From Planktothrix sp. (GTDB taxonomy: Bacteria > Cyanobacteriota > Cyanobacteriia > Cyanobacteriales > Microcoleaceae), in contig JBIIDK010000001.1 of assembly GCA_044238405.1 (NCBI GenBank), positions 6,114 through 70,113 on the forward strand: DNA of 64,000 nt. The letters run 5' to 3'. Below the pieces are notes generated by a model. That model did not search any database and was not told where the DNA came from. It saw only the letters and a list, made by a program, of their open reading frames with translations. The position numbers were made by a program, and so were the translations under genes. How positions within the stretch are numbered: position 1 is the stretch's first letter; each line of letters opens with the position of its first letter. This document shows, piece by piece, positions 33,023 through 41,623 of this stretch.

Positions 33023-34300
33023 TTATGTGGCATACAAGTAACCATCCTTTTTGTGAATTGTTGTACAGTATTTGTAGCTGATGCCTTGAATAATTGCTTC
33101 TTTCAGGGTGATATTAAAACTCCCACTTGAACGAACAGCAATTCGTCCTATATGTGTTCCAATTTTCTTACCTTTGGTAACAACAGCTTTAACTATATCG
33201 CCCGTTTGAAACCCTTTGACAAATTTAAAACGAGGAACATAACAAGAGGGAAAACCCAATTTATCTGTTCGGCACATTTGTCGGGAACCATGACCTGTTG
33301 CTTTGATTAATAAAGGTTTATTGGTTAAAACCTTTAAAGTTTCAACTTTCCCAACGCAAGCTGCATCTAACCAATGGGTTTTAGACAAGTTTAATTGAGT
33401 CCGATTGAATTTAGTTAAACCACCGGAACCTGTTTCAACAGGTAAACCCGTTTCTTTTAACCGATTAAACAGTAACCATCGAGTTGAATTAACTACTGTA
33501 GCATCTTTTAAGGGTTGTTTAGCTTGTCTCAAAATCCTTAGCAGTAAGTCAGATTTACTCGATAGAAAATCTTGAATATCTTGATTTCCTTTCTTTTGGT
33601 TACAGTCATGACAAGCAACAGTAAGATTTGAAATTCGGTCAGTTCCGCCTTGGGATTTGGGGTGAATATGTTCTACTTCTAAGGGTACGTTTTCAATTCC
33701 ACAGTAAGCACATTTTCTACCCCATTTTTCCAATAAGTATTGCCGAACCTCGTATCCTTGTAACTCTCCTTGTTGATACTGAATTCCACTGATTTCAGGA
33801 TTTTCAAGTTGCTGTAAGTCAAATCTCACTAACTCTTGAACAATTGAACCAATCGGTGCAAATTTAATTAATTTGTTGACCCAGGTTAGAGTTGTTTCTA
33901 CTCGATGTTGAAGACTGGGTGTTAACCCACCTTCTTGTCTTTTTCGGTTTAAGAATCGAGGTTGACGATATCTAGTTTTACGATTTCTTCGGGAGCGACG
34001 CAATGAACGTCGAGATTCCAAAGACATTTTAATTGTTTGACCTCGATGAGTTAATTCCGCACCCCAAATTACTTTGTTTCCCTGAACTAATGCCATTCCC
34101 GTAGTTTTTGAACCGGGGTCAATTTTAAGAGTGATTTGTTCTATTTCTGATTCGGGTTTTGACTCCTTCAAGATAATAGTAAACGGATAACGGCGATAAA
34201 CAGCAGCTTGACCTTGATTCAATAACAATCGAGCTTGAGCAGGATGTACTGGGTTTTGAGGCTGTTTATTCGGATCAATTACAAAAACGTAATTAGACAT
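33023..34300 (-). CDS. iscB: RNA-guided endonuclease IscB (RRXRR/PLMP, split RuvC, HNH)
   Basis: PQNPVHPAQAR (PLMP-like), IDPGSKTTG RuvC-I, Arg-rich bridge helix, QELVRFD RuvC-II, CAYCG..EHIHP..NL...C..CN HNH, HWLDAAC RuvC-III; catalytic residues appear intact. Confidence 0.95.
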   Translation of the reverse strand: MSNYVFVIDPNKQPQNPVHPAQARLLLNQGQAAVYRRYPFTIILKESKPESEIEQITLKIDPGSKTTGMALVQGNKVIWGAELTHRGQTIKMSLESRRSLRRSRRNRKTRYRQPRFLNRKRQEGGLTPSLQHRVETTLTWVNKLIKFAPIGSIVQELVRFDLQQLENPEISGIQYQQGELQGYEVRQYLLEKWGRKCAYCGIENVPLEVEHIHPKSQGGTDRISNLTVACHDCNQKKGNQDIQDFLSSKSDLLLRILRQAKQPLKDATVVNSTRWLLFNRLKETGLPVETGSGGLTKFNRTQLNLSKTHWLDAACVGKVETLKVLTNKPLLIKATGHGSRQMCRTDKLGFPSCYVPRFKFVKGFQTGDIVKAVVTKGKKIGTHIGRIAVRSSGSFNITLKEAIIQGISYKYCTTIHKKDGYLYAT

Positions 34301-34557
34301 AAGTTGACTCCTATTTCTAGGGTAATGTTAGCTTCGACAATGTTAGTGGTCGGTACTTTCTCGTTTTGCACTTCCTTAACCCGCTAAAGATGTTTAACAA
34401 CTGAGTTTTAGAGCTTGGGACTAGCTACGCATCCCAAGGTAAGAACTTTAACGCTTTTCCACTAACGTAGTGCTTAAGAAGCACTTAGTCTGGTCAACTT
34501 GGGCTGTATTTCAAGCCCCCACTGTAGTTGTACTCAAGTCAGTGGTGGGTTGTTGAC
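34301..34557 (-). ncRNA. omegaRNA scaffold of IscB; guide derived from flank ~34558-34577
   Basis: Minus strand reads GTCAACAACCC...GTTGACCAGACTAAG...CTACGTT...ACATTGTCGAAGCTAACATTACC..AGGAG-ATG, the typical omegaRNA/HEARO motif order. Confidence 0.88.
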
Positions 34558-34833: not shown

Positions 34834-36060
34834 ATGTCTATTCATAAACGACTTCCTGAAACCATCGGTGCTGTTGGTGAAGCGTTTCAGTTTCTCCTAC
34901 AACCTCGCATTTGGGGTTCCCTTAGCGTTCTGGCGGTAGTGGGAATGTTTTTTTGGCAGTTTTCTGAACATCCTGACTGGTTTAGTTTGGATGCAGAATC
35001 AATTCCCAAGCTGGGTAACGCCTTGAATCAACTGACCCCAGAAGAACAATCCATTGCTGCCGATATTGATAGTTCTCAACTGTTATTGGATGAGTTAAAT
35101 CGAAATAATTCTGGTGTTGTACCTTTAAACACAAGTATATCCTTGGGGCAAGACTTACTTAAACAAGCACAAGAATCAGCTAAAAAATCTGAATCTTCCT
35201 CTAATTCAAACCCAATCTTAGACAGTATACTTTCAGGTTCATCTCCCAAAACACAACCCTCAGTACAGCAGAATACATCTACTCTTTCTAACAATCTAAA
35301 TTCCATTTCTGATCCGGCTCAAACGTCCACCCAGCCTAATCCTAACTTGGGTTTAAATCAGCCAACCTCACCCTCAGCAAAAACCCAAACCCCCCAAACG
35401 GCAACCTCCGCCTTACAACAAGCCATGCAGAACTATCTGCAAACCCAAGCAACCGTAAACCCAGATCTAGCGTTACCTTCTAACGCAACTCCCGAATCCA
35501 CTGCAAGCTCTGAAAACCCATCATCAACTTTCTCAACTTTATCTCCGAATCATCTCACAAATCCTAACGCAGCATTAAATCCCCCTTCAGGAAAAACCGT
35601 TGGTCTCACACCCTTTACAGGAACTCCCACGATTACAGGGCAAACCTTCGCACCGACTTGGAGTGTTCCCAGAAACAATCCGAATTCTGCGGTGGGTACA
35701 GTTCCTCTTCCGGTTCAAAACCCCTATCAAACCAACGTTACCCTACCTCCTGCGGTTCCCACAGTCCCAACGGTAACGCCCGGAAACCCAAACTATTCTA
35801 ATCTCAATGCTTATCCTTATACCGGACAACCAGCCTATCCTAATAATTATATTGCACCCTCCTATTCTGTTACTCCAAATCCTGGAAGTTATAGCACCGT
35901 TCAACCAATTCAACCGAATAGCTATATGACTCCTAGTAATATGAATCCTAATTTACAACCGGGTCAAATCGGTCAAACCCAACCTAATTTTTCTATTCCT
36001 AATCAGGTTCCGGGTCGTTATATTGGCGGAGGGGAAATTAATACATTTGCCAATCCTTAG
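34834..36060 (+). CDS. Membrane-anchored Pro/Ser/Asn-rich hypothetical protein
   Basis: Single TM near the N-terminus, long low-complexity region, conserved-looking end PGRYIGGGEINTFANP. Confidence 0.75.
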   Translation: MSIHKRLPETIGAVGEAFQFLLQPRIWGSLSVLAVVGMFFWQFSEHPDWFSLDAESIPKLGNALNQLTPEEQSIAADIDSSQLLLDELNRNNSGVVPLNTSISLGQDLLKQAQESAKKSESSSNSNPILDSILSGSSPKTQPSVQQNTSTLSNNLNSISDPAQTSTQPNPNLGLNQPTSPSAKTQTPQTATSALQQAMQNYLQTQATVNPDLALPSNATPESTASSENPSSTFSTLSPNHLTNPNAALNPPSGKTVGLTPFTGTPTITGQTFAPTWSVPRNNPNSAVGTVPLPVQNPYQTNVTLPPAVPTVPTVTPGNPNYSNLNAYPYTGQPAYPNNYIAPSYSVTPNPGSYSTVQPIQPNSYMTPSNMNPNLQPGQIGQTQPNFSIPNQVPGRYIGGGEINTFANP

Positions 36061-36213: not shown

Positions 36214-37333
36214 TTAATCTCTATCTCTATCTGGAATATTGCACTCAGGGCATTCTCCAAAATACCACTGATTTTCCTCCTCATTGTACCAAGATGTCCA
36301 AACTTCATCACTATTATAGGAACTTTCCAAAAAGTCATCTTCATCTTCTTCCAATATAGATAAAATATCTCTTTTTTTATCTGGACGATCAAATTTTTTC
36401 AATGCTTCAAAAAGCATTTCTTCAGAAGATGTTTCAGCATTCCAAACCTCTTCAAAAACAGCCGTAGAATATTCTTCGTCGTTGTATGTCCTAGCATAAA
36501 CACTCAAAATTTCTCCAGAAAAAAAAGTTCCAATATAAACAGAAGGCTTTTTGATCCAATCATAGCCACGAGCGCGTCGATTATAATATTCAACAACTAC
36601 ATCACTGCCACCTGGTTCGTGTGAAAGAATATTTGTTCGAGCTTCGCGCTTAACCCAGAATACACAATTAACAAGATGTTCTGGTAAACCGATATAAACG
36701 TGTTCAATTTCTTCATTTCTTTTTAACCTGTCTTCAAGTTGTAATTGTTTTTGAGCTTTTATTTTTTCAGTTTGAGATTGCTTACGAACTCGATCTTCTT
36801 CTTCTGCTTCTTTTTTCTGACGAATTTTTTCGTTACGTTGTTGCTCAAACTCATTTTTACGAACTGAACCCACCAAAGCTAAGTAGGTGGGCATAAATAA
36901 CGTCAACTAACAAAAAGCTAAACTCCTTATTCTGAAGGACTTACAGCGTTTATCATTTTAACTTTAATTATGACCACGTAATTAGTGTAATTTCATCTAA
37001 CCATTGGGGTACGGAACTATCAATATCAACCCAAATATTTTCAATATAAGCAACCAAATCATTTTGCTCATGCTGAGGGATATCTTGTGTCTTTAACCAA
37101 ATCTTCCTTACTTTTTCACGATCACTATTATCAATCTCATACCAAAAGTTAATATCTACGGATGAACCAGAATCTAATTCTTTAGCTAGTTCGGGGTAAT
37201 CATGCTTGATACTTCTAATATGAAACCAAACTCCCTTTTTTTGTCGTTGGTAAGTATTCTTAAATGTGCAACTTACAAAACCGAAGCCTCTCTCTACATT
37301 GTATTCACGAATATGACCAAATTCAATTTCCAT
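36214..37333 (-). pseudogene. Cold-shock-like-domain protein (338 aa if restored) split by a MITE
   Basis: N-terminal FGHIREYNVERGFGFV..VWFHI CSD pattern; deleting 36882-36984 rejoins the two ORFs in frame as ..DEITL-ALVGSVRK.. Confidence 0.85.
36882..36982. mobile_element. 101-bp MITE with TA target-site duplication (IS630/Tc1-like)
   Basis: TA at 36880-81 and 36983-84; imperfect TIRs agtaggtgggcataaataa / attacgtggtcataattaa (15/19); inserted into a CTAG site. Confidence 0.85.
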
Positions 37334-37466
37334 AAATTTAATCCCTCAGATTTACGTCAAATTTAACCTAGCCTAGATAATCAATATTTGTTTTACTAAA
37401 TTATTATAATCAATTTGAATTGTAGTTCCACTTTAGGTAGAGGTAGAACTACAATCATACTTAGAT

Positions 37467-37967
37467 TTAATCTTTTTCTACTTGATCACGTATGTCCCTA
37501 AAATCAATGTAGTGCATACCAGCCACAGTTCTCAACTCGTGAGCTATAACGCCTTGAGTTGACAGGACAAGAAAGCGTTTTCCTCTAGCACGCAAAAGTT
37601 CTAAAGGTCTTTCAAAGTCACCATCTCCACTAACAAGCACAGCCATGTCGTAATGTTCAATAGTATTAAACATATCTAAAACTATTTCAATATCCAAATT
37701 TGCTTTTTGTCTAACAGAACCATCATTTTGAAGAATTTGCTTTAATGTTTTGTTAACTATTACATATCCCATATTGGTTAAAGCCCTGAGATAGTTTTCT
37801 TGTCTTGCATCAGGTGGAGCTTCTACACCAGTGTAGTAGAAAGCATCAACGATGTCACCTTTCGTGCTAACAAAATCTAGAATTTTTTTAGGATCTGCCC
37901 ACCAGTGCAATGAATCTCTTTGCATATAAAAGAAGTTAGCGCCATCAATAAATAAAGAGACCTGCAT
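37467..37967 (-). CDS. NYN domain (LabA/DUF88 PIN-like) protein
   Basis: FIDGANFF, QKANLDIEIVLDM, LVSGDGDFERPL, YIDF. Confidence 0.92.
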   Translation of the reverse strand: MQVSLFIDGANFFYMQRDSLHWWADPKKILDFVSTKGDIVDAFYYTGVEAPPDARQENYLRALTNMGYVIVNKTLKQILQNDGSVRQKANLDIEIVLDMFNTIEHYDMAVLVSGDGDFERPLELLRARGKRFLVLSTQGVIAHELRTVAGMHYIDFRDIRDQVEKD

Positions 37968-38023
37968 TATCTTACTCCCAATGGTTTAGGGTTCTATTAT
38001 CATCCCATCATAAAAACTTAACA

Positions 38024-38104
38024 AGACGGAAAAGGACGGATAAAGAAGGAGATTTTCTTCAGTATGTGTAAAGTGGGCGGAAAATGACGGATAATGGCGG
38101 AAAA
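38024..38104 (+). promoter_or_regulatory. Two arrays of 10-bp direct repeats nG(A/G)CGGA(A/T)AA (2+3 copies), operator-like
   Basis: agacggaaaa/ggacggataa (38024-43) and gggcggaaaa/tgacggataa/tggcggaaaa (38075-104). Confidence 0.65.
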
Positions 38105-38137
38105 GTAATTTTTTTTGGGGGGGTCAATCTCAAAGAG

Positions 38138-38671
38138 ATGGACTGGGAAACCGTGTTAAAGTCGATTGATGAGTTAGTCTTTAAACAAACCGGAAAGCAC
38201 CTTGATAGTTTGCAAATGGAAATTTTAAAGGGGGTTTTCAATAGTCAGAAGTATAGAGAGATTGCAGAACGGTATAAATGTACTAAGGGTCATGTCAAGG
38301 ATGAGGGATATGAACTCTGGCAACTTTTGTCAGAAATCTTAGGAGAAGACCTAAATAAGTCTAATTTTTGCGCTACGGTTGAACGGTTAGGAATTGCTAA
38401 TTCTCACTCTAGGCTCGTTAATCCAGTTCAGATTGGTCATTTTAATCTTTACACTAATTCCGAAGCAGTAGAATTAGAAAATAGAGATACCCTAAATACT
38501 GAATCAAATCAGCAAAATACAAGACCTTCCAAGCGAACAATGGACGATGTTTTGCGTGTTACCCAATTAAAAACTATTTCTAAGTTAATCAAACTAGGTT
38601 TAACAGCAGAACAAATTGCTGAAGTTGTTGATTTACCTTTAAATGAAGTACAGGAAGCTATGGAAAAATAA
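38138..38671 (+). CDS. Protein with N-terminal winged-HTH (vWA-MoxR/STAND-associated type) and C-terminal Rpn-like HTH
   Basis: HLDSLQMEILKG..KYREIA...YELWQLLSEILGE.LNKSNF; LIKLGLTAEQIAEVVDLPLNEV; start ATG38138 preferred. Confidence 0.65.
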   Translation: MDWETVLKSIDELVFKQTGKHLDSLQMEILKGVFNSQKYREIAERYKCTKGHVKDEGYELWQLLSEILGEDLNKSNFCATVERLGIANSHSRLVNPVQIGHFNLYTNSEAVELENRDTLNTESNQQNTRPSKRTMDDVLRVTQLKTISKLIKLGLTAEQIAEVVDLPLNEVQEAMEK

Positions 38672-38797
38672 ATTAACATTGGTTTAATTATCACTTTCAA
38701 TTGATAGATTAGCAGCAAGCCCAAGAATTTCGCCAAAAGAGGAAACAGGAAGTCAATCTGTATTTTTCGATTAGTGGCAGTGGTTTAGAGGCAGGAC

Positions 38798-38826
38798 TTG
38801 ACAGGATTAAAACCACCCTCTATACT
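38798..38826 (+). promoter_or_regulatory. Near-consensus sigma70 promoter
   Basis: TTGACA (38798-803) - 17 nt - TATACT (38821-26). Confidence 0.8.
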
Positions 38827-38832
38827 AGAATG

Positions 38833-38974
38833 TAGAAGTATGGATGCAGCAGACATGAGATAATCATGACATCCCGTTACCCTTTAGGGTCGAGGCAAGT
38901 CCGGTAAAGACGTTCTGAATACCAAAAATATAAACAAGTTTTTGGCGAAGGCTCCTTAAGGAGCCTTTGTTATT
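38833..38974 (+). ncRNA. Predicted ~140-nt structured sRNA
   Basis: Lies between the promoter and terminator; stems GGATG/CATCC enclosing CATGA/TCATG, CG-ACCC/GGGT-CG, CCAAAAA/TTTTTGG; no long ORF. Confidence 0.55.
38948..38974 (+). terminator. Intrinsic terminator hairpin
   Basis: Perfect 20-bp palindrome AAGGCTCCTTAAGGAGCCTT followed by TGTTATT; contains the stop of the convergent gene. Confidence 0.7.
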
Positions 38975-39582
38975 GAAGGCTTCGGTAGTTTCTTATTATT
39001 CAATAAGTTCTTAGCTATGACGAAGAAATTGACTTTCTGTCTTTTTTCCTGTACACCTTCGGATTGGGGATAGGCACTTGTTACATGGAGTCTTAGCCTT
39101 TTAGTTTCCCTGAATACTTTAAAAACAACAAAATAATCAACTTTAACACCCTTGGAGTCCACAACTTTCACAATTGCATAATTTCCATACCCTGCATGAC
39201 AGACTAAGGTTGCACTCTGACCAAGTGCCTTGATAATTTCAGGTAACTGCTTTGATAGGTAATATCTCTCAAAGTTAAAGGGTCTGGACTCTCTTGGCGC
39301 ATTGTACATCAATAATTGTGATTCTTCCTCTGTAAGATCTTCCGATTCTTTTGTAAAGCAGTGTAAGCCATAGGTTACTATAAATTTATATTTAATTAGG
39401 TTATTTGTGTCTCTATCATCAAGATATTCAACCGAATGGGCGTTTAGATGTGATAAATCGTAAATTTCACTATTTAGTGTAAAATTTCTCCAGTTTTTAA
39501 CTTCTGTTTCAACAGTATTAAATCTTTCAACCATTTGAGTATAATATATAGAAATTCGCGCTATTGTATTTACAAATGACAA
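38956..39582 (-). CDS. Hypothetical protein, possible BECR/RelE-superfamily RNase
   Basis: YDLSHL..TYGLHCFT..RPFNFERYYLSKQLPEII..YFVVF..LHVTSAYP; the fold call is inference. Confidence 0.5.
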   Translation of the reverse strand: MSFVNTIARISIYYTQMVERFNTVETEVKNWRNFTLNSEIYDLSHLNAHSVEYLDDRDTNNLIKYKFIVTYGLHCFTKESEDLTEEESQLLMYNAPRESRPFNFERYYLSKQLPEIIKALGQSATLVCHAGYGNYAIVKVVDSKGVKVDYFVVFKVFRETKRLRLHVTSAYPQSEGVQEKRQKVNFFVIAKNLLNNKKLPKPSITKAP

Positions 39583-39719
39583 GCATAATTCTACAACAAA
39601 GATACAAAGAACACAAAGAAATTCTAAACGCTAAGTTATCATTGCTATAACTAAAAAATGTAGTGCTATATCAATCATCACTCCTTCTTGGCGATACACC
39701 CATTTATCTCCTCGAATTT

Positions 39720-40898
39720 CTACTTAGAAGCACGAACTAATAAAAAACTCGCAATTCCAATGCCTAAAAATGTTGGCAACCAAGCGGCGAAAAAGGGAGT
39801 TAGAATTTCTTTTTGACCTAATGCTCCGGTGATAAACGAAAGTAAATAATATCCGAAAATAACCATAACACTAATCCCGAAACTCGTAGCGCGGCTGGTG
39901 CTTTGGGGTCTACTGCCTAATGCAACTCCTAATAACGCGAAGACCACACAGGAGAAGGGCAGAGCATATTTTTGTTGAATTCTAACTTTGGTTTTAACGA
40001 TTCTTTGTTGATCACCACTTAATTTCATCAACTTTAAATAATCTTGAGCTTGAGCAATATTCATCTCATCAAACCCCCGTTTTTTGGAGGCTAAATCTAA
40101 CGGAGTTCGTGACAGTTTAATTTGTTTGTGATCAAAGCGAACAATATTGCGATAGGAACCATCGGGATTAACAATATAAATAGTACCATTAAAGAAATCC
40201 CAGGTATTTTGAGCAAAATTCCAATTGGCAGATTTTGAAGAAATAATTTGAGTCAAATCGGGTTGAGAGCGATCTAAAATCGTGACTTCCAACATTTGAC
40301 CGCGATCAAACTTTTCAGCATAAAACAATCGGACTAAGCGACTAATTTTTTTATCCGTTCCTTCAATTTCAATTTTATCATATTCAGGATAAAAAATATT
40401 ATCTTCCTGAATCGGAAGCTGACCTTCATTTAACGCTTTTTCATAGGTAATAGAGGCTCGATAATTGGCAGCAGGAACAATTACCTCATTAAAACCAAAG
40501 GTTAAACCTGTAATCAAAAAACTAAAGATTAAAGTTGGAATCAGCAACCGATATAAACTAATCCCACAACTTCTTAAGGCAATTAATTCACTATCACTGG
40601 ATAAACGACCATAAACCATTAATGCACTTAAAATCATCGCCATCGGAAAGGCTAAAACGATGAATTCTGGCATTTTTAAGAGAAAAATCTGCACCGCAAT
40701 AGAAACCGCCATTCCCGATTCTGCCACTTGTCGAACTAAGTCAAAAACGGTTCCGACCGTGAGAGCAACAGAACTAAATAATCCGACTCCAAAGACAAAG
40801 GGCGGAATAATTTCTTGGATTAAATATCGATCTAAAATTGAGACAGAGGGGAGGAAAAATTGACCTGAACCCCAGGGTTTAGAAAGAGTGATTTTCAT
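39720..40898 (-). CDS. LptF/LptG family permease
   Basis: LDRYLIQE, LSSDSELIALRSCGIS, KYALPFSC, AAWLP. Confidence 0.92.
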   Translation of the reverse strand: MKITLSKPWGSGQFFLPSVSILDRYLIQEIIPPFVFGVGLFSSVALTVGTVFDLVRQVAESGMAVSIAVQIFLLKMPEFIVLAFPMAMILSALMVYGRLSSDSELIALRSCGISLYRLLIPTLIFSFLITGLTFGFNEVIVPAANYRASITYEKALNEGQLPIQEDNIFYPEYDKIEIEGTDKKISRLVRLFYAEKFDRGQMLEVTILDRSQPDLTQIISSKSANWNFAQNTWDFFNGTIYIVNPDGSYRNIVRFDHKQIKLSRTPLDLASKKRGFDEMNIAQAQDYLKLMKLSGDQQRIVKTKVRIQQKYALPFSCVVFALLGVALGSRPQSTSRATSFGISVMVIFGYYLLSFITGALGQKEILTPFFAAWLPTFLGIGIASFLLVRASK

Positions 40899-41623
40899 AA
40901 TTGAAAATTGTCGCCAAGGTAATATTGCCGCACTAGGGGATTATTGTAGAGTTCTTCGGCGGTTCCTGATGCAAAAATTTGTCCATCCCGCATCATATAG
41001 GCTCGGTTTGTAATGGCTAAAGTTTCTCGCACGTTATGATCGGTAATCAAAATTCCCATATTGCGATCGCGTAATTGAGCGACAATTTCTTGAATTTCAG
41101 AAACAGCAATGGGGTCAACTCCAGCAAAAGGTTCATCTAAGAGTAAAAATTGAGGTAATTCTAATCCTGCTGCTAAAGCACGAGCAAGTTCAGTGCGGCG
41201 TCGTTCTCCTCCAGATACCTGATAACCTAAAGTTGAGGCGACTTTCTCTAACCGAAACTCCCGTAATAAAGTATGGAGACGTTTTTGCCATAAATGACGA
41301 GGAACACCGGTTTGCTGTAAAACCAATAAAATATTATCCCTGACACTGAGATGGCGAAAAATACTCGCTTGTTGAGTTAAATAACCAATGCCTAAACGAG
41401 CTCGCTGATGAATAGGTAAATCGGTAATCTCCAATTCATTAAGATAAACATTGCCTTGGGTGGGTTTTTCTAATCCCGTGGCAATATAGAAAGTCGTGGT
41501 TTTCCCAGCACCATTTGGCCCTAATAATCCCACAATTTCTCCTTGAGAAACCGAAAGATTGACTCGACTAACAACGGTGCGTTTCCGGTAGGATTTGTGA
41601 ATATTCTCCAGCACAATTTTCAT
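40895..41623 (-). CDS. lptB: LPS export ABC transporter ATP-binding protein
   Basis: GPNGAGKTT, SGGERRRTELAR, LLDEPFAGVDP, ITDHNVRETL. Confidence 0.96.
   Translation of the reverse strand: MKIVLENIHKSYRKRTVVSRVNLSVSQGEIVGLLGPNGAGKTTTFYIATGLEKPTQGNVYLNELEITDLPIHQRARLGIGYLTQQASIFRHLSVRDNILLVLQQTGVPRHLWQKRLHTLLREFRLEKVASTLGYQVSGGERRRTELARALAAGLELPQFLLLDEPFAGVDPIAVSEIQEIVAQLRDRNMGILITDHNVRETLAITNRAYMMRDGQIFASGTAEELYNNPLVRQYYLGDNFQL

What the first reader, a model, noticed from the sequence alone, without database searches (positions are those of the whole stretch)
38798..39582. Strong-promoter structured sRNA convergent on a putative RNase gene: candidate new RNA-antitoxin module
Seen: TTGACA-17-TATACT (38798-38826) has no downstream + strand gene for >4 kb. 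It is followed by ~140 nt with nested stems (GGATG[CATGA-gataa-TCATG]CATCC; CG-ACCC-ttta-GGGT-CG; CCAAAAA/TTTTTGG) and a perfect 20-bp terminator palindrome whose loop contains the stop codon of the oppositely oriented 208-aa gene. That protein is soluble and ends in a beta-rich ..YFVVF..LHVTSAYP segment like BECR/RelE-fold RNases (inference). Established: type I TA sRNAs overlap toxin 3' ends but control small hydrophobic peptides; type III antitoxin RNAs are upstream repeats that bind RNase toxins. This locus mixes the two layouts. Alternative: 7- and 13-codon micro-ORFs in the RNA (38840, 38866).
Basis: partly seen in the sequence, partly recalled or inferred. Interest (0 to 1): 0.7.

Follow-up and report, generated by a model that had tools for sequence, protein, structure and literature searches.

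The report
SroH-like sRNA with YjaZ partner
This is a cyanobacterial copy of the E. coli small RNA SroH and its convergent neighbour gene yjaZ. It is a real two-gene RNA-protein cassette of unknown function, found from cyanobacteria to enterobacterial plasmids, and its structured RNA changes along with the protein.

Summary
A near-consensus promoter (38798-38826) drives a ~140-nt structured RNA that ends in a terminator shared with a convergent gene.

The locus is not an unknown kind of object. The RNA matches Rfam sroH (RF00372) over its full length (68.6 bits, E 2e-15, below the gathering score of 80). The protein is 51% identical to E. coli YjaZ (PF27200), and in K-12 yjaZ and sroH have the same convergent layout.

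What goes beyond the databases:
- A model built here finds the RNA next to 54 of the yjaZ homologues fetched from Cyanobacteria and Gammaproteobacteria. All but one closest relative sit in unrelated flanks.
- 18 of 29 base pairs show compensatory changes.
- More distant YjaZ clades carry two other convergent RNA types that Rfam does not hold.
- The unit is present or absent as a whole in E. coli and occurs on 576 plasmids.

The BECR/RelE RNase fold is not supported: two models gave no significant structural match. No paper in the held library assigns a function to SroH or YjaZ.

Best reading (about 0.4): the RNA binds and restrains its own YjaZ protein, in a type III-like toxin-antitoxin logic. 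A non-toxic RNA-protein complex is nearly as likely. Toxicity and binding are untested.

The parts
38798..38826 (+). Sigma-70-type promoter of the sRNA: TTGACA, 17 nt, TATACT. The transcription start is inferred near 38833-38834.
   Evidence: 11 of 12 matches; a promoter with at least 10 of 12 matches stands in the same place in 17 of 45 homologous loci. In most cyanobacterial loci the -10 box ends about 8 nt before GGAUG.
38834..38975 (+). SroH-like small RNA, about 140 nt. It has helices P1-P5, a possible 4-bp pseudoknot (CAGA 38850-53 with UCUG 38914-17) and an intrinsic terminator.
   Evidence: Rfam RF00372 sroH, full length, 68.6 bits, E 1.9e-15; own model R1 hits 38832-38976 at 155 bits; covariation. 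G-U pairs and the U-tail fix the strand as +.
38842..38874 (+). P1 (GGAUG/CAUCC) enclosing the invariant CAGCAGAC and the variable hairpin P2 (38854-58 with 38864-68).
   Evidence: P1 covaries to GAAUG/CAUUC and GAGUG/CACUC within type 1, and to GGGUG/CACCC in type 2. All 5 pairs of P2 show compensatory changes.
38879..38903 (+). P3 (ACCC/GGGU) and P4 (CGAGG/UCCG, with a bulged A).
   Evidence: P3 is invariant in its 3 modelled pairs. In P4 the closing pair changes from C:G to U:A in the Pseudanabaena clade. The inner parts vary in length with pairing kept.
38904..38921 (+). Nearly invariant single-stranded stretch GUAAAGACGUUCUGAAUA. It contains the 3' strand of the proposed pseudoknot.
   Evidence: conserved from cyanobacteria to E. 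coli. The pseudoknot pair changes from CAGA:UCUG in type 1 to CAGG:CCUG in type 2.
38922..38945 (+). P5 hairpin: CCAAAAA, loop, UUUUUGG.
   Evidence: all 4 modelled pairs show compensatory changes (CCAA/UUGG, CCAG/CUGG, CCGA/UCGG, CCUG/CAGG).
38948..38975 (+). Shared terminator: the palindrome AAGGCTCC-TTAA-GGAGCCTT plus a U-rich tail. It overlaps the last codons of the convergent gene.
   Evidence: sequence; 6 of 8 stem pairs show compensatory changes. One search lists an overlapping alternative hairpin at 38960-38983.
38956..39534 (-). yjaZ-family gene: 192 aa from the ATG at 39534, pI 9.05, soluble. The mechanical ORF from the TTG at 39582 is 208 aa.
   Evidence: 51% identity to E. coli YjaZ, E 2e-58. 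NF007263 at 178 bits; homologues carry PF27200 'YjaZ'; start codon. AF2 model with pLDDT 82; pI.
38755..39534 (.). Approximate extent of the portable cassette, RNA gene plus yjaZ.
   Evidence: metatranscriptome contigs of a related strain (about 94% identical) match only 38755-39534 and carry other sequence on both sides; only the closest relative (L004) shares the window's flanking genes.

Best explanation
**Shown.** The locus is the cyanobacterial counterpart of the E. coli yjaZ-sroH pair. A strong promoter makes a ~140-nt RNA that folds into five helices, probably with a small pseudoknot, and ends at a terminator shared with the convergent gene. That gene encodes a basic ~185-aa protein of the YjaZ family, whose fold matches nothing solved. 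The two genes travel together as a self-contained cassette. The RNA diverges in step with the protein, in three RNA types for three protein clades.

**Inferred mechanism.** The RNA acts on its own protein by direct binding, not mainly by antisense pairing. The most likely logic is an RNA antitoxin holding a harmful or tightly controlled protein in check: type III-like in principle, with a type I-like 3' overlap. The abundant but labile RNA keeps YjaZ inactive. Loss of the cassette, or a fall in the RNA, frees the protein. That would explain carriage on plasmids and transposons and gain or loss as a unit.

**Not shown.** The activity of YjaZ is unknown. Conserved residues are H29, H58, T61, R90, Y134, S153 and Y155. 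Binding and toxicity are both untested.
For: **Identity.**

**Linkage.**
- Model R1 finds the RNA at 54 fetched loci plus the window, with E at or below 1e-16. Two of these loci, the E. coli plasmid records L001 and L002, were fetched through their match to the RNA itself rather than through the protein, and L001 has no yjaZ gene. The RNA lies directly beyond the 3' end of the gene on the opposite strand, except in L049 and L001.
- Flanking genes differ in all loci but one.

**Unit behaviour.**
- 3718 of 5426 E. coli genomes hold the whole 861-nt unit. Only 23 hold a part.
- 576 plasmid records carry the gene, 295 of them conjugative.
- One copy sits next to a Tn3 transposase.

**RNA structure.**

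**Co-evolution.**
- A type 2 RNA goes with the YjaZ clade at 31-36% identity in Pseudomonas, Pasteurellaceae and Klebsiella plasmids.
- A type 3 RNA goes with a more distant clade.

**Not antisense-dependent.**
- In Thiomargarita the RNA lies upstream and co-directional with the gene, as in ToxIN.
- There is no extra pairing with the yjaZ start region (mean z 0.08).

**Toxin-antitoxin-like decay pattern.**
- The protein gene is frameshifted, interrupted or absent beside an intact RNA in L055, L043 and L001.
- No intact type 1 gene lacks the RNA.

**Other.**
- The RNA is labile in E. coli: polyadenylated and a PNPase substrate.
- All family proteins are basic.
Against: - No toxicity or binding data exist.
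- An E. coli sroH deletion is viable, with only an envelope-stress phenotype (cited in PMC5389530 and PMC13572404).
- No nuclease or known toxin fold was found.
- There is no PADLOC family.
- The RNA is a single structured unit, not the processed tandem repeats of type III antitoxins.
- The single-stranded RNA core is almost invariant between phyla while the protein is only about 50% identical. This could mean that the RNA contacts something more conserved than YjaZ.
- A Vibrio plasmid homologue (L072) and L086 show no recognisable RNA.
- Neighbouring genes are mostly housekeeping genes, not defence islands.
Confidence: 0.4

Rival explanations
1. Non-toxic ribonucleoprotein. YjaZ is the dedicated partner of the RNA, as binder, stabiliser, processing or modifying enzyme. 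The complex has a cellular job such as a stress response or RNA quality control, comparable to Rsr (Ro60) with Y RNAs or SmpB with tmRNA. The cassette is accessory but not addictive.
For: - It rests on the same linkage and co-evolution evidence.
- The RNA is more complex and more conserved than a simple inhibitor needs: five helices and about 60 invariant nucleotides across phyla.
- The sroH deletion is viable, with an envelope-stress phenotype.
- In E. coli the pair sits at a fixed chromosomal site beside rpoBC in 69% of genomes.
- In cyanobacteria the neighbours are housekeeping genes.
Against: - Carriage on plasmids and a Tn3 element, and patchy distribution, fit a selfish module better.
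- Protein genes decay beside intact RNA genes.
- The RNA core shows no mimicry of, or complementarity to, rRNA.
Confidence: 0.3
2. Pure cis-antisense control. The RNA regulates yjaZ only through convergent transcription and the roughly 20-30-nt 3' overlap. This would be RNase III-type decay or transcriptional interference, as in the 3'-overlapping type I pairs of Bacillus such as txpA/RatA and bsrG/SR4.
For: - The convergent layout with a shared terminator is kept in 52 of the 54 loci fetched with the RNA.
- The terminator and U-tail overlap the end of the coding sequence.
- The reverse direction of the terminator lacks a U-tail, so the yjaZ mRNA may read into the RNA gene (sequence).
Against: - The overlap cannot explain the conserved, covarying 110-nt structured core, which lies outside it.
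- In Thiomargarita the RNA is co-directional with the gene.
- An orphan copy keeps its promoter on plasmids.
- The toxin would be a 192-aa soluble protein, not a small membrane peptide.
Confidence: 0.12
3. An ordinary trans-acting, Hfq-dependent sRNA that regulates unrelated mRNAs, and whose position next to yjaZ has no functional meaning.
For: - SroH was enriched with Hfq in a PAR-CLIP preprint.
- An in-vitro binding target (kbl) was reported.
Against: - Linkage to yjaZ is kept between phyla in unrelated genomic contexts, with joint gain and loss.
- The RNA type changes with the protein clade.
- The conservation pattern is that of a folded core, not of a short seed.
Confidence: 0.06
4. The transcript is a small mRNA for the 7- or 13-codon micro-ORFs at 38840 and 38866.
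For: The ORFs exist in this sequence.
Against: - The start context and the P2 sequence vary through compensatory base changes, not synonymous ones.
- E. coli SroH has low ribosome coverage.
Confidence: 0.02

Closest known systems
E. coli SroH sRNA (Rfam RF00372) with yjaZ/htrC (PF27200, NCBIfam NF007263)
   Same: - The RNA matches full length, with long identical stretches: GGAUGCAGCAGAC, GACAUCCCG, GUCCGGUAA, GUUCUGAAUACC and UGGCGAA.
- The protein is 51% identical.
- The layout is the same: convergent, with a shared terminator.
   Different: - The host is a different phylum.
- The score is below Rfam's gathering value and below the NCBIfam equivalog cut-off.
- The promoter stands closer to P1, so the 5' leader is about 8 nt rather than about 30 nt.
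- The ORF reads 4 codons further, into the terminator loop.
- Rfam annotates no structure apart from the terminator.
- In the papers searched, the function of both partners is unknown.
Type III toxin-antitoxin systems (ToxIN, CptIN, TenpIN)
   Same: - An RNA gene is paired with a soluble protein gene.
- The pair occurs on plasmids.
- The proposed logic is the same: an RNA binds and neutralises the protein.
- The RNA is pseudoknotted.
- One homologue (Thiomargarita) has the order RNA, terminator, gene.
   Different: - The RNA has no tandem repeats.
- The orientation is convergent.
- The protein has no ToxN/AbiQ-like or other recognisable RNase fold.
- There is no evidence of processing or toxicity.
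Type I pairs with 3' overlap or enzyme toxins (txpA/RatA, bsrG/SR4; ralR/RalA, symE/SymR). These are recalled from knowledge and were not tested here.
   Same: - The antisense RNA converges on the 3' end of its partner.
- RalR and SymE show that type I toxins can be soluble enzymes.
- SroH was enriched with Hfq in one study.
   Different: - The overlap is only the terminator.
- Most of the RNA is a conserved fold outside the overlap.
- There is no extra pairing with the start region.
- The protein is 192 aa and hydrophilic.
Rsr (Ro60) with Y RNA modules. This is recalled from knowledge.
   Same: A structured sRNA gene lies next to the gene of its protein partner, and the pair is spread patchily among bacteria.
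   Different: Neither the RNA nor the protein shows sequence or fold similarity to these modules. There is no Rfam Y RNA match.

Membership tests
Rfam RF00372 sroH | Covariance-model score at or above the gathering score of 80 bits | tested here: not met
   68.6 bits, E 1.9e-15, model positions 1-161 all matched. It is homologous but more diverged than the enterobacterial seed.
Rfam RF00372 sroH | Lies beyond the 3' end of yjaZ on the opposite strand and ends in an intrinsic terminator | tested here: met
   the layout is the same as in K-12; the terminator stem covaries.
Rfam RF00372 sroH | Expressed as a discrete RNA of about 140-160 nt | tested here: inconclusive
   metatranscriptome contigs cover the region, but contigs carry no strand or end information and may include DNA. 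Expression is documented only for E. coli.
YjaZ family (Pfam PF27200; NCBIfam NF007263) | Significant full-length similarity to YjaZ | tested here: met
   51% identity over 182 aa, E 2e-58. NF007263 with E 1.7e-52; relatives at 89-91% identity carry PF27200 'YjaZ'.
YjaZ family (Pfam PF27200; NCBIfam NF007263) | NCBIfam equivalog cut-off of 324 bits | tested here: not met
   178 bits. It is a family member, not an equivalog of the enterobacterial protein. The local Pfam copy lacks PF27200.
Type III toxin-antitoxin | Antitoxin RNA made of tandem direct repeats upstream of the toxin gene on the same strand | tested here: not met
   there are no repeats in the RNA gene; the RNA is convergent and lies downstream.
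Type III toxin-antitoxin | Toxin is an endoribonuclease of a known fold | tested here: not met
   no PDB match with E below 0.08; no sequence match to solved structures.
Type III toxin-antitoxin | RNA binds and neutralises the protein, and the protein is toxic alone | not testable with these tools
   This needs expression and binding experiments.
Type I toxin-antitoxin | Antisense RNA overlaps the toxin mRNA | tested here: met
   the terminator and tail of the RNA (38948-38975) overlap the last codons and the stop of the gene (38956 onward). Only about 20 nt of coding sequence are covered.
Type I toxin-antitoxin | Small hydrophobic toxin peptide | tested here: not met
   192 aa, GRAVY -0.48, pI 9.05.
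   the best BECR-type hit is 6cp9_G, E 0.25, probability 0.60, TM 0.23/0.37 over 76 columns, which is not significant; the C-terminal model gives no such hit, and that model is weak (pLDDT 70).
Known anti-phage defence systems (PADLOC 2.0) | Match to a PADLOC protein model | tested here: not met
   no family for the window protein or for E. coli YjaZ.

The most novel reading that the evidence does not exclude
YjaZ-family proteins and their cognate convergent RNAs (SroH and two RNA types that Rfam does not hold) form a widespread, undescribed class of RNA-protein toxin-antitoxin or addiction modules. A single pseudoknotted RNA would neutralise a toxin of a new fold by direct binding. That would also give E. 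coli SroH and YjaZ their first function.
Probability: 0.3. Interest if true: 0.8.

Novelty: new member of a known kind. Interest (0 to 1): 0.6.

Why it matters
SroH has been a named E. coli sRNA for about twenty years without a function. YjaZ lost its old 'heat-shock protein HtrC' designation.

This locus shows three things:
- The two are a conserved pair from cyanobacteria to enterobacteria and their plasmids.
- The RNA has a covariation-supported fold that Rfam does not annotate.
- Related protein clades carry their own RNA types.

Together these turn two orphan annotations into one testable hypothesis: an RNA-protein module, possibly a new toxin-antitoxin class. They also give hundreds of natural sequence variants for designing binding and rescue experiments, and they supply seed alignments for extending RF00372 and adding two RNA families.

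Tried and rejected
1. **BECR/RelE or any known fold.** Tried Foldseek of the full model against PDB and BFVD, a C-terminal model against PDB, and HMM searches against PDB sequences, Pfam, PHROGs and PADLOC. Nothing was significant. The best viral hit was a fragment of a polyvalent 'nuclease' protein (E 4.9e-3, TM 0.30), too weak to use.

2. **The RNA as a mimic or antisense of rRNA.** The 16S 530-loop seemed to share short words with the RNA. Local alignment of the window and K-12 RNA cores to E. coli 16S, 23S and 5S, both strands, stayed at shuffle level. The only z above 2 lies on the variable P3 loop.

3. **Extra base pairing between the RNA core and the yjaZ start region.** The mean z against shuffles was 0.08 over 36 loci.

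5. **A phage origin.** There was no tblastn hit in 50,697 phage genomes. Only 5 of 2.9 million viral contigs hold the core RNA motif.

6. **Rfam families for the type 2 and type 3 RNAs.** None were found. A marginal RsmY hit (25 bits against a gathering score of 57) was ignored.

7. **Literature.** Eight full-text searches for sroH, yjaZ and htrC found no paper that links the two genes or assigns a mechanism. The library lacks most subscription journals, so this is not proof that none exists.

8. **Strand-specific expression in the window's organism.** Only assembled metatranscriptome contigs were available.
Full report
**What is in the window**

The + strand carries TTGACA-17-TATACT at 38798-38826. 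This is the only promoter-like site with 11 of 12 matches in 37000-41000. No real + strand gene follows before 43021. Downstream lies a stretch of about 140 nt that ends in the palindrome AAGGCTCC-TTAA-GGAGCCTT (38948-38967) plus a U-rich tail.

On the - strand an ORF runs from 39582 to 38956, and its stop codon lies in the loop of that palindrome. Alignment with homologues puts the true start at the ATG at 39534, which gives 192 aa. The single-sequence fold of the RNA is only mildly better than shuffles (z -2.47). The sequence alone therefore would not settle the matter.

**Identity**

A permissive Rfam scan matched 38820-38969 to RF00372 sroH over the whole model. The score was 68.6 bits with E 1.9e-15, below the gathering score of 80. 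The default gathering-score scan had missed it.

The protein has no family in the local Pfam copy. It is nevertheless 51% identical to E. coli K-12 YjaZ (E 2e-58) and matches NCBIfam NF007263 'YjaZ' at 178 bits, against an equivalog cut-off of 324. Its close relatives carry the newer Pfam family PF27200, named YjaZ.

In K-12, yjaZ (+) is followed one base later by sroH (-). This is the same convergent layout as in the window. Window, K-12 and plasmid copies share long identical RNA stretches, while the hairpin sequences differ in a compensatory way.

**How general the pair is**

The protein family is large:
- 186 close clusters, mostly cyanobacterial.
- 787 clusters at 50% identity with E at or below 1e-3.

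A scan of one genome per species returned 67 loci in Cyanobacteria and Gammaproteobacteria. A covariance model built here (R1) finds the RNA at 54 fetched loci besides the window, each with E at or below 1e-16. Two of these loci, the E. coli plasmid records L001 and L002, were fetched through their match to the RNA itself rather than through the protein. The RNA lies directly beyond the 3' end of the gene on the opposite strand. There are two exceptions:
- In the Thiomargarita MAG L049 the RNA lies upstream of the gene and on the same strand.
- In the plasmid L001 there is no yjaZ at all.

Only the closest relative (L004) shares the window's flanking genes. Elsewhere the neighbours are unrelated housekeeping genes, a Tn3 transposase or a type I restriction system.

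In E. coli, 3718 of 5426 complete genomes hold the whole 861-nt unit and only 23 hold a part of it. The gene occurs on 576 plasmid records, mostly from Klebsiella, and 295 of these are conjugative. It is essentially absent from phages.

**RNA structure**

On 46 type 1 sequences, 98.5% of pair cells are standard pairs, against 86.9% in shuffles. Eighteen of 29 pairs have changes on both sides, no shuffle reaches any of the measures, and partners slid by one to three columns collapse to 28-49% paired. One caveat applies: the alignment was fitted to the model.

- P1, P2, P4, P5 and the terminator all covary.
- P3 is invariant in its three modelled pairs.
- About 60 nucleotides, many of them unpaired, are invariant between phyla.
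- RNAalifold proposed a long-range pairing CAGA:UCUG, which would form a pseudoknot with P1. It never varies within type 1 but becomes CAGG:CCUG in type 2. That is one compensatory event, suggestive only.
- A promoter with at least 10 of 12 matches stands at the equivalent place in 17 of 45 loci.

**RNA types follow protein clades**

YjaZ homologues at 31-36% identity in Pseudomonas, Pasteurellaceae and Klebsiella plasmids are not hit by R1. They carry a convergent RNA with the same five-helix order and partly shared motifs (CGUUAC, GGUAA.A.CGU.CUG), and it covaries internally.

A still more distant clade, from metagenomes, has a third convergent RNA with its own conserved motifs: CCGCC, two hairpins, AUAGCCAAGAGGCCCG, then a terminator. 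Rfam holds neither type.

Two homologues showed no recognisable RNA: the Vibrio plasmid L072, which has a convergent 115-aa ORF instead, and L086.

**The protein**

The AF2 model is confident (pLDDT 82, pTM 0.78). It is mostly antiparallel beta strands with a few helices.

- Foldseek finds nothing significant in PDB. The best E is 0.087. A CDI toxin-complex chain scores probability 0.6 with TM 0.37.
- In BFVD there is only a weak hit to a polyvalent-protein 'nuclease' fragment.
- A C-terminal sub-model was weaker (pLDDT 70) and also matched nothing.

Conserved across the superfamily are F18, L27, H58, R90, Y134, S153 and A154, and nearly so H29, T61, S94 and Y155. All members are basic, with pI 8.8-9.7. 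This fits nucleic-acid binding or a metal-independent nuclease, but it proves neither.

**Mechanism**

The facts to be explained are:
- strict linkage in unrelated contexts;
- joint gain and loss;
- an RNA type that follows the protein clade;
- a conserved folded RNA core that lies outside the short antisense overlap;
- one co-directional arrangement;
- a strong RNA promoter;
- plasmid and transposon carriage;
- three cases in which the protein gene is frameshifted, interrupted or missing while the RNA is intact (L055, L043, L001), with no intact type 1 gene lacking the RNA.

Direct recognition of the protein by its cognate RNA explains these best. An antitoxin-like role is the most economical version (about 0.4).

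Against it:
- The sroH deletion in MG1655 is viable, with an envelope-stress phenotype. This is cited second-hand in PMC5389530 and PMC13572404.
- No toxin fold was recognised.
- The RNA core is far more conserved than the protein.

A non-toxic ribonucleoprotein is therefore almost as likely (about 0.3). Pure cis-antisense control (about 0.12), an unrelated Hfq sRNA (about 0.06) and a micro-ORF mRNA (about 0.02) fit the data poorly. I also tested and rejected rRNA mimicry or complementarity and extra pairing with the yjaZ start region.

**Expression**

For E. coli, the papers read here document the RNA, its polyadenylation, its decay by PNPase, its enrichment with Hfq and its low ribosome coverage.

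For the window's organism, only assembled metatranscriptome contigs were available. They cover the cassette, and in a related strain they show it bounded by other sequence at 38755 and 39534. They give no strand or end information.

**Comparison with what is known, and novelty**

The locus is a diverged member of the known sroH/yjaZ pair. It is not a new kind of object. Its layout fits neither type I nor type III toxin-antitoxin definitions (see the membership table).

Eight full-text searches found no paper that links the two genes or gives either a function. As late as August 2026, SroH is described only by the envelope-stress phenotype of its deletion. The library is incomplete, so prior description elsewhere cannot be excluded.

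To my knowledge, what this analysis adds is:
- the spread of the pair across phyla;
- the covariation-supported fold;
- the two further RNA types;
- the unit behaviour of the cassette.

**Verdict**

The finding is real and correctly seen. Its interpretation is partly right: the toxin-antitoxin-like reading stays open, the RNase fold is not supported, and the locus is not new as an object. Interest is moderate to high, because a widespread and experimentally accessible RNA-protein pair, present in K-12, still has no known function.

Noticed in passing
window 33023-34557 (- strand): A HEARO (omega) RNA at 34322-34557 (139 bits, above gathering) lies directly upstream of a 425-aa ORF with HNH motifs at 33023-34300. 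This is a typical IscB-omegaRNA (OMEGA) locus.
   Followed up: partly
window 36214-37967 (- strand): A NYN-domain gene at 37467-37967 (Pfam E 2.8e-27; PADLOC NYN and HEC-09 hits) lies beside a cold-shock-domain-like gene (36968-37333) and an unknown 230-aa gene (36214-36906). This could be a defence-type cluster next to the cassette.
   Followed up: no
window 38084-38671 (+ strand): A 195-aa ORF has weak sigma-70 region 4 / HTH matches and a T8G7 homopolymer run near its start (about 38107-38121). A metatranscriptome contig from a related strain skips 38383-38754, so that strain lacks the ORF's 3' half.
   Followed up: no
L001 3002-3143 (E. coli plasmid NZ_CP100912.1): An orphan SroH-like RNA gene has its own promoter and no yjaZ remnant. 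It lies just outside the end of a Tn5403-type transposase gene and converges on a relBE toxin-antitoxin operon. Several E. coli plasmids share this arrangement.
   Followed up: partly
L049 2712-3606 (Thiomargarita MAG): The RNA lies upstream of the yjaZ homologue and on the same strand, which is the ToxIN-like order. Its P2 hairpin carries an insertion of about 130 nt. This is a single case from a MAG.
   Followed up: partly
L054, L056-L066, L068, L071, L073 (3' flank of the gene, opposite strand): A 'type 2' RNA (GGGUGGUUACAGGG..GCACCCCGUU..GGUAACAACGUCCUGCCC..GCUGAGAA plus a terminator) accompanies the YjaZ clade of Pseudomonas, Pasteurellaceae and Klebsiella plasmids. It has no Rfam family.
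   Followed up: partly
L078, L080, L081, L083 (3' flank of the gene, opposite strand): A 'type 3' convergent RNA (..CCGCC, two hairpins, AUAGCCAAGAGGCCCG, terminator) accompanies a more distant YjaZ clade from metagenomes. In L078 the gene follows a Tn3-family transposase.
   Followed up: partly
L055 (Shigella flexneri) and L043 (Microcoleus sp. N9_A2): The yjaZ homologue is frameshifted in L055 and interrupted in L043, while the adjacent RNA gene scores as intact (115 and 154 bits).
   Followed up: partly
window 39535-39585 and the equivalent places in cyanobacterial loci: Many cyanobacterial yjaZ genes have a -10-like hexamer 6-7 nt before the ATG and no Shine-Dalgarno sequence, which suggests leaderless mRNAs. 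E. coli yjaZ has a normal Shine-Dalgarno sequence.
   Followed up: partly
L072 4604-4951 (Vibrio parahaemolyticus plasmid): A yjaZ-like gene has no recognisable partner RNA. A convergent 115-aa hypothetical ORF stands in the place where the RNA lies elsewhere.
   Followed up: no
window 34834-36060 (+ strand): A 408-aa ORF is very rich in P, N, Q, S and T. It looks like a low-complexity, probably secreted or cell-surface protein.
   Followed up: no
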